A stretch of DNA of 64,000 bases, from the NCBI RefSeq assembly GCF_054482595.1, contig NZ_CM137008.1; one strand, written 5' to 3'. Position numbers: made by a program. Shown piece after piece: positions 57,001 to 60,000 of this stretch (within the stretch, counting starts at the first letter, position 1; every line of letters begins with the position of its first letter).

Positions 57001-60000
57001 AGCTCGTAACGGGTCTGATACTGTGGTTTCATTTTCATATTCCTCACGGGGGATAACAGGCAGCAGAACGCCGCCGGCAGGCCGGAGATTGCGTCTGCTG
57101 TGGGTGAAGGGGCAGTGGTTAAAAATTACGGACGGGACTGTGCAATACGCGCCTGCAGCCAGGCTTCCACTTCACTTTTCAGCCAGCGGGAGCTGCGGCC
57201 AAGTTTGATGGGAGCCGGAAAGGCCCCATCCTTGATGAGCTTGTAAAACCACTTATCGGTCAGGCCGGTCAGCTGAGTGATAAACGCCATATCGACCATC
57301 TGGTCATCCATCAGCGAAACTGGGGGGGGGGTCATAAAAATCTCCTCCGGATGTTGTTAATCTCAACCGGCGTTGATGATGAAAACAACGCACCACCTTC
57401 ACCGGCATAACAACCGGGGAGAAACGTAAAAAATCAGTAGGGGAATATTCCTGCCAGGAGAGAAACGGTTGTGTACAGGCAATACAGGTTGTCTGTTTTG
57501 TCAGTGAAGCCGGTATAAACGGAAGATGATTTTGTGTTGCCGGAATATGGGATGGTATTTTGTCGTGACGGAATCAGTATTTTCAGTGATGATTATTACT
57601 GCGCAGGGGAGTACCGGAGAGAAACCACGCCCTGTACCTGCCAGAGCGGTGGTTTGTATTGACTGAACGGAAGATAAAGCGAGGTAAACACTGTTGTGGT
57701 GAGCGGAGAAGACTGAGATTATTCTCTGTAATTACAAACAACAGTGATCTTATCCGGTTTTTTTACCGTTACGGGTTTCAGGGGATCAATTTTATAGACC
57801 GGGGTAATGACCACGCCGTAATTTATGGAGAAAAGCGGGATCCAGCAATAAACGTCAGGATATTTCTGTGTCTCCGGAATACCTTTTGTGCCAGAGGCCA
57901 TCAGATCTTTAACGCTCACGAAAAATGACTTCCGCAGATCAAAAAAGTACTCGTTATATATCACATCCTTTGCCAGCAGGATGACTGCATTACCAACAGC
58001 CGATTTTACAGGTGTTTCATCAGGTGGATTATCGTGATTGTATATTGTTCTTTCTATATAAATAAAACAGGCATATTTCGTCTTCTCCCCGGATAGTTGC
58101 ATCTGGTATTCGCAAATGTCTTTGATATACCGACTTTCAACCCTTCCAATCATCTTATCCCGGCGATAGTGTCTTTTATGTTTCAGCGCGTACAGAACAC
58201 CATTTGAACTGTCAAACTCCAGGACACTTCTGGTGAAAAGTTTGTTTTCCCAGATCTCCAGACAATACTTCTCTGCACTGACGACATTGCGTTTGTGGGG
58301 AAGATTCCGTTGATACACTCCATTTAATAAGCGTGACTGCAGTTCGCCTGCAAGTTGATAGTAACAGTTAATGTCATTAAGGACAGGTGCTGTGGCGTTG
58401 GATTTGCCCCTATATTTCCAGACACCTGTTATCACTTAACCCATTACTGGCTTGCTGCCGTAGATATTCCCGTGGCGAGCGATAACCCAGTGCACTATGC
58501 GGATGCCATTCGTTATAATGCTCGAATGCCTCTGCAAGGTTCTTTGCTGCCGTTAACCCGTCTGGTTTGGGCATGACACTGATGTAGTCACGCTTTATCG
58601 TTTTCACGAAGCTCTCTGCTATGCCGTTACTCTCCGGACTCCGCACCGCCGTGTTCTTCGGTTCAAGCCCCAACATCCGGGCAAACTGCCGTGTTTCATT
58701 AGCCCGGTAGCATGAACCATTATCCGTCAGCCACTCTACTGGAGACGCCGGAAGCTCGTTGCCGAAACGGCGTTCCACCGCTCCCAGCATGACGTCCTGT
58801 ACTGTTTCACTGTTGAAGCCGCCCGTAGTGACCGCCCAGTGCAGTGCCTCACGGTCACAGCAGTCCAGCGCGAACGTGACTCGCAGTTTTTCTCCGTTAT
58901 CACAGCGGAACTCGAACCCGTCAGAGCACCATCGCTGATTACTTTCTTTCACAGCCACTCTGCCGGTATGTGCCCGTTTCGATGGCGGTACAGCGGGTTT
59001 TCGCTCAAGCAACAGCGCATTCTGGCGCATGATCCGGTAAATACGTTTGGCATTGATCGCAGGCATACCATCAAGTTCGGCCTGTCTGCGAAGCAGCGCC
59101 CATACCCGACGATAACCATATGTGGGCAGCTCTCCGATAACATGGTGTATACGGAGAAGCACATCCGTATCATCTGAGTGACGGCTGCGGCGACCATCTT
59201 TCCAGTCATCGGTTCGTCTGAGAATGACGTGCAACTGCGCACGCGACACCCGGAGACAACGGCTGACTAAGCTTACTCCCCATCCCCGGGCAATAAGGGC
59301 GCGTGCGCTATCCACTTTTTTGCACGCCCGTATTCAACGGCTTCTTTAAGGAGTTCATTTTCCATCGTTTTTTTGCCGAGCAGGCGCTGGAGTTCTTTAA
59401 TCTGCTTCATGGCGGCAGCAAGTTCAGAGGCAGGAACGACCTGTTCTCCTGCGGCCACAGCAGTAAGACTTCCCTCCTGGTATTGCTTGCGCCAGAGAAA
59501 TAACTGGCTGGCTGCCACACCGTGTTGCCGGGCAACAAGGGAGACTGTCATTCCCGGTTCAAAACTCTGCTGAACAATAGCGATCTTTTCCTGTGTAGTA
59601 CGCCGTCTGCGTTTCTCCGGTCCTAAGACATCAATCATCTGCTCTCCAATGACTAGTCTAAAAACTAGTATTAAGACTATCACTTAAATAAGTGATATTG
59701 GTTGTCTGGAGATTCAGGGGGCCAGTCTAGGCGTTGAGTAATGTGTTGATTACCTTAGAGCGCGAAAGTTTGTGGGTATGACAGTACTCATCCACAATTC
59801 GCAGTGTCTCATCACTGGTCATATTGAAAGTTATACGTGTTGTCATGATGAAGTTTTCTGTTAATCATACTGGTTGATATGCATAACATTTCATAAAAAA
59901 TACTGTTAATTCATATAATTGATTTTTTGACTGGTTTTATCCTCGTGTGGTGGAAAGCAGTATTACTGCCACTGTAGTCAGCATAAATCTATCACACAGA

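What the first reader, a model, noticed from the sequence alone, without database searches (positions are those of the whole stretch)
57322..57335. G10/C10 homopolymer directly after the alpA-like start codon: candidate slipped-strand ON/OFF switch
A run of ten G (57322-57331; C10 in the mRNA) encodes codons 2-5 (TPPP) of the AlpA-like regulator. Tracts this long are rare in E. coli and slip readily; a change of one base would frameshift the gene. AlpA-type proteins control integrase or excision and island gene expression, so tract length could toggle island behaviour. In-frame Met codons at residues 9, 13 and 16 just upstream of the helix-turn-helix could allow reinitiation, which would soften the effect.
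Basis: seen in the sequence. Interest (0 to 1): 0.5.

Follow-up and report, generated by a model that had tools for sequence, protein, structure and literature searches.

The report
Length-variable poly-C tract, AlpA-like gene
A run of ten C's directly after the start codon of a small E. coli island regulator really exists and really changes length between strains (7 to 11 C's, often out of frame), so it is a genuine mutation hotspot, but it arose recently, changes slowly, and there is no evidence yet that the cell uses it as a switch.

Summary
The G10 run (window 57322-57331; C10 in the mRNA) is real. It forms codons 2-5 (T-P-P-P) of a 69-aa AlpA/excisionase-family protein whose ATG has a strong Shine-Dalgarno site. 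It is a derived feature. Most alleles, and homologues in other genera, read ATG ACC ACC CCA (MTTPV). One A-to-C change at a known E. coli hotspot (an A followed by several C's) gives C7, and single-base slippage then extends it. Among 5,426 complete E. coli genomes, alleles with identical flanks carry C7 (116 records), C8 (17), C9 (5), C10 (6) and C11 (1). In a 15-billion-protein collection the truncated products called from out-of-frame alleles outnumber the in-frame products on this allele backbone. All 16 contigs sampled behind those calls carried C8 or C9. In 18 near-identical loci, at least three tract-length changes accompany only three substitutions in 1,099 bases. Even so, each haplotype mostly keeps one length, so change is slow and clonally inherited. 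In out-of-frame alleles translation stops at UGA codons overlapping or next to the in-frame Met9 and Met13 codons, which lie upstream of the whole Pfam domain. The "OFF" state is therefore probably leaky. No integrase lies next to the gene. Verdict: a real slippage hotspot and a plausible high/low expression polymorphism, but adaptive ON/OFF switching is unproven.

The parts
57322..57331 (-). Poly-C tract (C10 in the mRNA, G10 on the + strand). It spans codon 2 positions 2-3 through codon 5 positions 1-2 (ACC CCC CCC CCA).
   Evidence: Length polymorphism C7-C11 in other genomes.
57126..57335 (-). AlpA/excisionase-family gene, 69 aa (MTPPPVSLMDDQMVDM...). The winged-helix domain covers residues 13-60.
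   Evidence: ORF. Pfam PF05930 E = 5.3e-9 and HTH_17. PHROG 'excisionase and transcriptional regulator'. TorI (1z4h) and the GIsul2 excisionase (8c3t) are the nearest solved structures. RefSeq WP_040235183.1.
57342..57348 (-). Shine-Dalgarno sequence GGAGGAG, 6 nt upstream of ATG1.
   Evidence: Read directly. GGAGGA is conserved in all alleles read.
57333..57335 (-). ATG1, the native start codon.
   Evidence: M1 is invariant and T2 nearly invariant in 24 homologues from many genera. The Shine-Dalgarno site is at the correct spacing.
57309..57313 (-). AUG of Met9 (57309-57311) overlapping the UGA (57311-57313) that closes the -1 frame: the motif cUGAUGg. In C9 alleles the 7-codon peptide MTPPQFR stops here.
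   Evidence: Translation of the C9 locus L006. RefSeq starts its 61-aa protein WP_001341133.1 at this Met.
57304..57306 (-). UGA that closes the +1 frame (used by C8 and C11 alleles, peptide MTPP(P)SFADG*). It lies 4 nt upstream of the Met13 AUG.
   Evidence: Translation of L005 (C11), L007 and L008 (C8).
57297..57299 (-). AUG of Met13, in frame, at the first residue of the Pfam domain. Some annotation pipelines call a 57-aa product from here.
   Evidence: All seven contigs sampled for the 57-aa product carry C8 or C9.
56430..57047 (-). Co-directional downstream gene (202/205 aa, no family match), the first gene of a long same-strand island array that runs through the GTPase and Ag43 genes to the CbeA/CbtA genes.
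57719..58435 (-). Upstream YagM-family gene. In this window its 5' part is cut by an IS2-type insertion that begins near 58.4 kb.

Best explanation
The tract is a real replication-slippage hotspot of recent mutational origin, not a conserved regulatory device.

Step 1 (inferred from the comparison of alleles plus published mutation spectra). The ancestral 5' end ATG ACC ACC CCA (MTTPV) suffered an A-to-C transversion at an A followed by four C's. This is the 'AC3+' context, the strongest A:T>C:G hotspot in E. coli. The change fused two short C runs into C7 (MTPPV).

Step 2 (shown by comparing genomes). The run then changed by single bases to C8, C9, C10 and C11. The window carries C10, an in-frame state that makes the full 69-aa protein with Pro-Pro-Pro at residues 3-5.

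Step 3 (read from the sequence; the consequence is inferred). A length that is not 7 or 10 puts the Shine-Dalgarno-driven ATG1 out of frame. Ribosomes then make a 7-10-residue peptide and stop at a UGA that overlaps the Met9 AUG (C9) or lies 4 nt before the Met13 AUG (C8, C11). Neither internal AUG has its own Shine-Dalgarno site. The domain-complete 61- or 57-aa protein can therefore be made only by termination-reinitiation, presumably at a much lower level.

The net effect is a heritable, slowly changing high/low (leaky) expression polymorphism of an AlpA/excisionase-type DNA-binding protein in a partly degraded island. It is most likely a mutational by-product that is tolerated rather than selected.
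For: Tract, reading frame and Shine-Dalgarno site.

Ancestral state: MTTPV is the common allele (at least 1000 contigs) and the consensus across Klebsiella, Citrobacter, Enterobacter, Cronobacter, Salmonella, Kosakonia and others.

AC3+ hotspot: PMC13250602.

Length series in complete genomes with identical flanks: C7 = 116, C8 = 17, C9 = 5, C10 = 6, C11 = 1, confirmed by reading the DNA.

Hypermutability: loci with C9, C10 and C11 differ by 0-2 substitutions in 2.5 kb. In 18 loci sharing 1,099 nt there are only 3 SNP sites but 4 tract lengths, in an ordered one-step series: GAA(C8), GAG(C8, C9), GGG(C9), AGG(C10, C11). That is roughly 1000-fold the per-site substitution rate.

Out-of-frame alleles are common and come from independent assemblies, including metagenome scaffolds. 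The 61-aa product is on 748 contigs and the 57-aa product on 469, against 286 for C7 and 137 for C10. All 16 sampled contigs behind the truncated calls carry C8 or C9.

The stops in the shifted frames sit beside in-frame AUGs.

The tract-encoded tail is dispensable-looking: the Pfam domain covers residues 13-60, AlphaFold pLDDT is below 50 for residues 1-9 with the first strand at 13-15, and residues 3-13 are poorly conserved while V14 onward is nearly invariant.
Against: No expression data exist. Reinitiation at Met9 or Met13 is inferred only from codon geometry, so out-of-frame alleles might be true nulls.

The observed length series is also what a contingency locus would show, so neutrality is not demonstrated.

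Contig counts are biased by clonal oversampling. The 61-aa and 57-aa counts come from different annotation pipelines and may partly overlap.

The only same-strain discordance (NCTC86: C7 in CP019778, C8 in LR217818) could be real switching or a long-read homopolymer error.

The AlphaFold model is of moderate quality (mean pLDDT 74.6, and only one of the five models is good).
Confidence: 0.6

Rival explanations
1. Evolved contingency locus. Selection maintains the tract because stochastic ON/OFF switching of the AlpA-type regulator or excisionase gives mixed populations that differ in island excision or island gene expression.
For: The tract lies just after the start codon of a regulator. In-frame and out-of-frame lengths are both common in nature. 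The tract changes about 1000 times faster than neighbouring sites. One strain sequenced twice differs by one C. Analogous switches are documented: the poly-C tract of GAS mga (PMC10330708) and the 5' poly-A tract of Listeria inlA (PMC2831843).
Against: The tract is absent from most alleles of the same gene and from other genera, and a mutational hotspot explains its origin. Length is stable within haplotypes and within related isolates: the five C9 genomes share one IS layout, and the pairs FXCREC004/035, MLI106K2/K4 and GN03551/GN03139 each agree. The OFF states are probably leaky. No adjacent integrase is present in the three genomes inspected, and several neighbouring genes are pseudogenes. 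The in-frame fraction is about one quarter, near the one third expected without constraint on frame.
Confidence: 0.2
2. Simple gene decay. The regulator is dispensable in this cryptic island, out-of-frame tract lengths are null alleles with no useful reinitiation, and the polymorphism is the first stage of pseudogenisation.
For: The island is degraded, with IS elements, truncated AAA ATPase genes and other pseudogenes nearby. The frame distribution is close to random. The internal AUGs lack Shine-Dalgarno sites (sequence).
Against: Downstream of the tract the coding sequence stays intact and identical in the C8-C11 alleles, with no secondary stops or indels in 18 loci. The wider family is highly conserved from V14 onward. 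The stop codons beside in-frame AUGs offer a plausible rescue route.
Confidence: 0.15
3. The true start is Met9 or Met13 and the tract lies in the 5' leader, so its length is irrelevant to the protein.
For: RefSeq and other pipelines annotate 61- and 57-aa products. The Pfam domain starts at residue 13.
Against: The strong GGAGGAG site lies 6 nt upstream of ATG1, with nothing comparable before Met9 or Met13. M1 and T2 are conserved in 24 homologues, whereas positions 9 and 13 are Leu and Phe/Leu outside E. coli. The truncated calls were found only on alleles with out-of-frame tracts.
Confidence: 0.03
4. The tract or its length variation is a sequencing or assembly artefact.
For: Homopolymers are error-prone in long-read assemblies. 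The NCTC86 discordance involves at least one long-read reference assembly.
Against: Each length recurs in several independent genomes and co-segregates with flanking SNP haplotypes. C8 and C9 also occur in draft assemblies and metagenome scaffolds from other projects. The exact C10 product is recorded on 137 contigs.
Confidence: 0.02

Closest known systems
Poly-C tract in the Group A Streptococcus regulator gene mga (c.1571C[8]; Lei et al. 2023, PMC10330708)
   Same: A homopolymeric C run inside the coding sequence of a transcriptional regulator. Lengths one base apart (C6, C7, C8) coexist among sequenced strains. Frame changes give protein length variants, some functional and some not. Slipped-strand mispairing is the mechanism.
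   Different: The mga tract lies near the 3' end and changes the C-terminus, whereas this one lies at codons 2-5. Reversible switching and a phenotype (M protein) were shown experimentally for mga, and nothing has been tested here. The organisms and protein families also differ.
5' poly-A tract of Listeria monocytogenes inlA (Orsi et al. 2010, PMC2831843)
   Same: A homopolymer a few codons into the gene. A frameshift yields a peptide of about 8 aa. The tract mutates about 1000-fold faster than the point-mutation rate, the same order as estimated here from haplotypes. The frameshift arose more than once.
   Different: That tract is poly-A in a surface virulence protein. No downstream in-frame restart codons were reported. 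The rate was measured with reporters, whereas here it is inferred from comparative data.
Classical simple-sequence-repeat contingency loci (poly-G/C tracts in Neisseria, Haemophilus, Campylobacter and Bordetella; review PMC11868660; B. pertussis PMC1891110)
   Same: The sequence anatomy is the same: a G/C homopolymer of 7-11 in a 5' coding region, with strain-to-strain length variation that includes out-of-frame states.
   Different: Those loci switch fast and reversibly within clones, and the tracts are maintained across the species. Here the tract is confined to one allele lineage, is stable within haplotypes, and sits in a mismatch-repair-proficient species where phase variation normally uses invertases or Dam methylation (fim, pap, Ag43).
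AlpA / TorI / GIsul2-type excisionases (Pfam PF05930; PDB 1z4h, 8c3t); P. aeruginosa AlpA antiterminator (PMC7969949)
   Same: The protein family and fold match: a small MerR-like winged helix of about 70 aa encoded in integrated elements. Profile match to TorI E = 3.5e-5. Foldseek TM-score 0.70/0.84 to the GIsul2 excisionase.
   Different: None of these relatives is reported to carry a homopolymeric tract. The biochemical role of this particular protein (excision factor, activator or antiterminator) is unknown, and no integrase lies beside it.

Membership tests
Phage_AlpA (PF05930) / MerR-like winged-helix excisionase family | Significant match to the family profile | tested here: met
   Pfam PF05930 residues 13-60, E = 5.3e-9, and HTH_17 E = 7e-7. 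PHROG 66 and 2790 'excisionase and transcriptional regulator', E = 1e-9 to 1e-8. The NCBIfam 'excise' domain scored below its cut-off (21.9 against 28.8 bits).
Phage_AlpA (PF05930) / MerR-like winged-helix excisionase family | Winged-helix fold (strand, helix-turn-helix, wing, C-terminal helix) | tested here: met
   AlphaFold model: E13-15, H16-23, H27-36, E50-52, H53-67, mean pLDDT 74.6. Best PDB matches are the GIsul2 excisionase 8c3t (TM 0.70/0.84), TorI 1z4h and RdfS 8dgl, though Foldseek E-values are only 2e-3 to 3e-2.
Phage_AlpA (PF05930) / MerR-like winged-helix excisionase family | Encoded next to a cognate tyrosine integrase in an integrated element | tested here: not met
   No integrase lies within about 8-20 kb upstream in LR14, strain 746 or DA33133. 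The conserved layout is hyp202 <- alpA-like <- yagM | Hha -> Gp2/YagK -> zinc-ribbon genes. There is no tRNA gene in the window. This is a usual context rather than a strict requirement of the Pfam family.
Phage_AlpA (PF05930) / MerR-like winged-helix excisionase family | Excision-directionality, activator or antiterminator activity | not testable with these tools
   Requires excision assays, ChIP or reporter fusions.
Simple-sequence-repeat contingency (phase-variable) locus | Repeat tract placed so that unit changes alter expression of the gene | tested here: met
   C10 lies at codons 2-5. A change of one base shifts the ATG1 frame and gives stops after 7-10 codons.
Simple-sequence-repeat contingency (phase-variable) locus | Tract length polymorphic among isolates, including out-of-frame lengths | tested here: met
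   C7 116, C8 17, C9 5, C10 6, C11 1 in complete genomes. Confirmed in DNA. Truncated products recorded on 748 + 469 contigs.
Simple-sequence-repeat contingency (phase-variable) locus | High-frequency, reversible switching within a clonal population | tested here: inconclusive
   The tract changes about 1000 times faster than flanking sites, and the two NCTC86 assemblies differ by one C. However, length is constant within most haplotypes and related isolates. No read-level or culture data are available.
Simple-sequence-repeat contingency (phase-variable) locus | Tract maintained across the gene's lineage (evidence of selection for mutability) | tested here: not met
   The majority allele and all 21 homologues from other taxa in alignment A1 lack it (MTTP...). 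The products expected from C4, C13 and C16 are absent from 15 billion proteins.
Simple-sequence-repeat contingency (phase-variable) locus | Distinct phenotypes in the ON and OFF states | not testable with these tools
   Needs isogenic locked-length strains.
Translational coupling / termination-reinitiation | Upstream stop overlapping or within a few nt of a downstream in-frame start that lacks its own Shine-Dalgarno site | tested here: met
   C9: UGAUG overlap at Met9. C8 and C11: UGA 4 nt before the Met13 AUG. No GGAG-like motif precedes either AUG. Whether reinitiation actually occurs cannot be tested here.

The most novel reading that the evidence does not exclude
E. coli, a mismatch-repair-proficient species whose known phase variation relies on invertases and Dam methylation, carries a genuine simple-sequence-repeat contingency locus. 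In this reading the poly-C tract stochastically sets an island-encoded AlpA/excisionase-type regulator to high, low or off. It would thereby diversify expression or stability of a widespread island that also carries Ag43 and the CbtA/CbeA toxin-antitoxin pair, making it a small 'phasevarion' controlled by a homopolymer.
Probability: 0.12. Interest if true: 0.7.

Novelty: new member of a known kind. Interest (0 to 1): 0.4.

Why it matters
Homopolymer-driven variation of gene expression is textbook biology for Neisseria, Haemophilus and Campylobacter but is hardly documented for natural E. coli genes. This is a clear natural example. A tract was born from a point mutation at a known hotspot and then ratcheted from C7 to C11, with each step preserved in sequenced lineages.

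It has practical consequences. Annotation pipelines silently report three different proteins (69/68, 61 and 57 aa) for one gene, and the tract could serve as a fast-evolving marker within E. coli lineages that carry it.

If tract length proved to change the level of an excisionase-type regulator, it would link slippage to the behaviour of a very common E. coli island family: 3,542 of 5,426 complete genomes carry this gene family. If it has no effect, it remains a clean case study of how contingency-like tracts arise by mutation bias without selection.

Tried and rejected
1. Shine-Dalgarno sequestration by the C run. I folded the translation-initiation region with the ancestral sequence and with C6-C13. 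MFE was -25.2 to -25.5 kcal/mol and the mean unpaired probability of the Shine-Dalgarno site was 0.37-0.42 throughout, so tract length does not change accessibility. The 'terminator-like' hairpin at 57324-57348 is the same weak G-run/CTCCTCC pairing on the antisense strand and was dismissed.

2. Sequencing artefact. Rejected, see the rival explanations.

3. Met9 or Met13 as the native start. Rejected from Shine-Dalgarno placement and family conservation.

4. Known RNA element. Rfam gave nothing near the gene.

5. Promoter scan of the 383-nt upstream spacer found no sigma-70-like site. This is uninformative.

6. Literature. I found no paper describing a homopolymer in an E. coli alpA-like gene. 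The library covers open-access papers only.

7. Transcriptional slippage as a rescue route. Documented E. coli RNA polymerase slippage concerns A/T runs (PMC6260861). I kept it only as an untested minor possibility, together with +1 ribosomal slippage of tRNA-Pro on CCC-C near the start codon (PMC6335274).

8. Identifying the exact source genome. The best match, LR14 (NZ_CM188746), is identical except for the position of an IS2-type element. No complete genome matches the window exactly.

9. I did not use the metagenome or genome-collection DNA scans, because the E. coli genome set and the exact-protein look-ups already gave the length spectrum.
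Full report
OBSERVATION. The window carries ten consecutive G at 57322-57331 on the + strand. On the - strand this reads ATG ACC CCC CCC CCA GTT TCG CTG ATG..., the 5' end of a 69-aa ORF (57126..57335). A strong Shine-Dalgarno sequence, GGAGGAG (57342-57348), lies 6 nt upstream of the ATG. This is the only G or C run of 8 or more in the 64 kb. Dinucleotide-preserving shuffles give 0.06 such runs per window, and 5 of 100 shuffles had at least one. In E. coli K-12, even 8-bp G:C runs are described as outliers (PMC8510543).

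WHAT THE GENE IS. The protein matches Pfam Phage_AlpA (PF05930, residues 13-60, E = 5.3e-9) and HTH_17. It also matches PHROG families annotated 'excisionase and transcriptional regulator'. A family profile finds the KplE1 excisionase TorI (1z4h, E = 3.5e-5) and an AlpA-family protein, 8c3t. An AlphaFold model (mean pLDDT 74.6) shows a small winged-helix fold with its first strand at residues 13-15, and residues 1-9 have pLDDT below 50. The best structural matches are the GIsul2 excisionase, TorI and RdfS.

The gene family is very common: 3,542 of 5,426 complete E. coli genomes carry it, with a median of two copies. Homologues at 80-88% identity occur in Klebsiella, Citrobacter, Enterobacter, Cronobacter, Salmonella, Kosakonia and others.

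The gene follows a YagM-family gene on the same strand and sits near the head of a long same-strand array: a 202-aa unknown protein, ATPase remnants, a GTPase, Ag43, DUF905, DUF932, an antirestriction protein, a JAB/RadC protein, DUF987, CbeA/CbtA, DUF5983, DUF957 and DUF4942. On its other side lies a divergent Hha - Gp2/YagK - zinc-ribbon block. No integrase is adjacent in the three genomes inspected, and there is no tRNA gene in the window.

THE TRACT IS DERIVED. The common allele reads ATG ACC ACC CCA (MTTPV, 68 aa; L002 and L004). Its exact product is recorded on at least 1000 contigs. In an alignment of 24 homologues, M1 is invariant, T2 is nearly invariant and the consensus is MTTPxSLL. 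Positions 9 and 13 are Met only in the E. coli alleles (Leu and Phe/Leu elsewhere), and the sequence is almost invariant from V14 onward. So ATG1 is the native start, Thr3 (ACC) is ancestral, and Pro3 is derived.

The ancestral ACC-A-CCCC contains an A followed by four C's. That is the 'AC3+' context, recently shown to be the strongest A:T>C:G substitution hotspot in E. coli, acting through transient misalignment (PMC13250602). One such change yields C7 (MTPPV). This step is an inference from the sequence comparison and the published mutation spectrum.

THE TRACT VARIES IN NATURE. I searched the complete E. coli genomes with a 92-nt query centred on the tract. Among alleles with identical flanks there were six records with C10, one with C11, five with C9 and seventeen with C8. 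A C7 version of the query matched 116 records exactly. I read the DNA of representatives: L005 = C11, L006 = C9, L007 = C8, L009 and L010 = C7. Strain NCTC86 appears as C7 in CP019778 and C8 in LR217818, and the two 2.5-kb loci are otherwise identical. This may be real switching or a long-read homopolymer error.

RefSeq does not flag the out-of-frame alleles as pseudogenes. It annotates a 61-aa protein starting at Met9 (WP_001341133.1).

In the 15-billion-protein collection, counts on the same downstream backbone are as follows:
- the C10 product is on 137 contigs
- the C7 product is on 286
- the 61-aa Met9 form is on 748
- the 57-aa Met13 form is on 469
- the products expected from C4, C13 and C16 are absent

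All 16 contigs sampled for the 61- and 57-aa forms carry C8 or C9, and they include draft assemblies and ENA metagenome scaffolds. A sister backbone (PIKMGR) has C7 on at least 1000 contigs and the 61-aa form on only 38. This suggests C7 is fairly stable and that instability grows with tract length.

HOW FAST IT CHANGES. Eighteen loci of the window's allele lineage share 1,099 aligned bases. They contain only three SNP sites but four tract lengths, arranged as an ordered one-step series: haplotype GAA (C8), GAG (C8 and C9), GGG (C9), AGG (C10 and C11). At least three single-base length changes at one site therefore accompany three substitutions in about 1,090 sites. That is roughly a thousand-fold higher per-site rate, the same order as measured for the Listeria inlA poly-A tract (PMC2831843).

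Yet each haplotype mostly has one length, and related isolates agree with each other. The five C9 genomes share one IS3/IS100 layout, and the pairs FXCREC004/035, MLI106K2/K4 and GN03551/GN03139 each agree. So the tract is hypermutable relative to its surroundings but slow on the timescale of clones, as expected for a mismatch-repair-proficient species. The mismatch-repair point is an inference.

CONSEQUENCES OF LENGTH CHANGE. These are read from the sequence, and the effects are inferred.
- C7 and C10 keep ATG1 in frame. C10 encodes Pro-Pro-Pro at residues 3-5, a motif class known to need EF-P. I did not test that here.
- C9 gives MTPPQFR*, with the UGA overlapping the Met9 AUG (cUGAUGg, 57309-57313).
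- C8 and C11 give MTPP(P)SFADG*, with the UGA (57304-57306) 4 nt before the Met13 AUG.

Neither internal AUG has a Shine-Dalgarno site. Both lie upstream of, or at the edge of, the Pfam domain and of the structured part of the model. Out-of-frame alleles could therefore still make a domain-complete protein by termination-reinitiation, presumably at a low level. That would make the states 'high/low' rather than 'ON/OFF'.

Folding of the initiation region shows no effect of tract length on Shine-Dalgarno accessibility. CCC-C sequences next to a start codon are also unusually prone to +1 ribosomal slippage (PMC6335274), which could add a little more leakiness.

IS IT A SWITCH? For: the position in a regulator, natural in-frame and out-of-frame variation, and local hypermutability, all as in the GAS mga poly-C switch (PMC10330708) and other contingency loci (PMC11868660). 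Against:
- The tract is restricted to one allele lineage and is explained by mutation bias.
- It is stable within clones.
- About three quarters of tract alleles on this backbone are out of frame, near the two thirds expected with no constraint on frame.
- The OFF state is probably leaky.
- The surrounding island is partly degraded, and no integrase lies beside the gene.

I therefore favour a tolerated slippage hotspot that creates a heritable expression polymorphism (0.6). The alternatives are an evolved contingency locus (0.2), plain gene decay with null alleles (0.15), a mis-assigned start (0.03) and an artefact (0.02).

COMPARISON AND NOVELTY. Mechanistically this is slipped-strand mispairing at a coding homopolymer, a known kind of feature. 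I found no report of it in an E. coli alpA-like gene (open-access literature only). It meets the anatomical and polymorphism criteria of a contingency locus. It fails the criterion that the tract is maintained across the lineage. Switching rate and phenotype remain untested. I class it as a new member of a known kind, of moderate interest (0.4). The most novel reading not excluded, a true homopolymer-controlled regulator in E. coli, has a probability of about 0.12.

Noticed in passing
window 58400-59700 (IS2-type orfA 59273..59683, orfB 58410..59315, - strand): An IS2/IS3-family element is inserted in the 5' part of the YagM-family gene just upstream of the alpA-like gene. In the closest complete genome (LR14, NZ_CM188746) the same-sized IS sits about 0.8 kb further away and yagM is intact. 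No complete RefSeq genome matches the window exactly. The insertion could affect read-through transcription into the alpA-like gene.
   Followed up: partly
window 57304-57408 (- strand), 34-aa ORF MPVKVVRCFHHQRRLRLTTSGGDFYDPPPSFADG: An upstream ATG-initiated ORF crosses the Shine-Dalgarno site and the tract in the +1 register. With a C9 tract it would fuse in frame to the regulator and give a 92-aa ORF. In some other alleles a 92-aa form (MPVKV...NILMATPVSLMDDQ) is annotated (P0004, P0005). No Shine-Dalgarno site precedes this ATG.
   Followed up: partly
L008 (NZ_LR217818.1) versus L009 (NZ_CP019778.1), both E. coli NCTC86: Two independent assemblies of the same historic strain differ by one C in the tract (C8 against C7), with no other difference in 2.5 kb. 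This is either real within-strain slippage or a long-read homopolymer error. The data here cannot decide between them.
   Followed up: partly
Protein alignment A1, residues 9 and 13: The in-frame Met9 and Met13 codons that could rescue frameshifted alleles exist only in the E. coli alleles. Homologues in other genera have Leu and Phe/Leu at these positions. The codons pre-date the tract, because the ancestral MTTPV alleles also have them.
   Followed up: yes
window 21485-21706 (- strand) and 49625-49861 (- strand): Rfam matches to C0719 sRNA (299 bits) and IS102 RNA (74.6 bits). Both are unrelated to the finding.
   Followed up: no
window about 41000-57100 (- strand); L027 4025-20039: Downstream of the regulator lies the conserved CP4-44/CP4-6-like island backbone on the same strand (GTPase, Ag43/Cah autotransporter, DUF905, DUF932, antirestriction, JAB/RadC, DUF987, CbeA/CbtA, DUF5983, DUF957, DUF4942), interrupted by pseudogene fragments (AAA ATPase). 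Whether the AlpA-like protein controls this array, for example as an antiterminator like P. aeruginosa AlpA, is an open question.
   Followed up: no
RefSeq annotation of L005-L008 and protein look-up: Annotation pipelines report one gene as three different intact proteins (69/68 aa, 61 aa from Met9, 57 aa from Met13) depending on tract length and on the gene caller. The frameshift is never flagged, so the polymorphism is invisible in protein-level pangenome analyses.
   Followed up: yes
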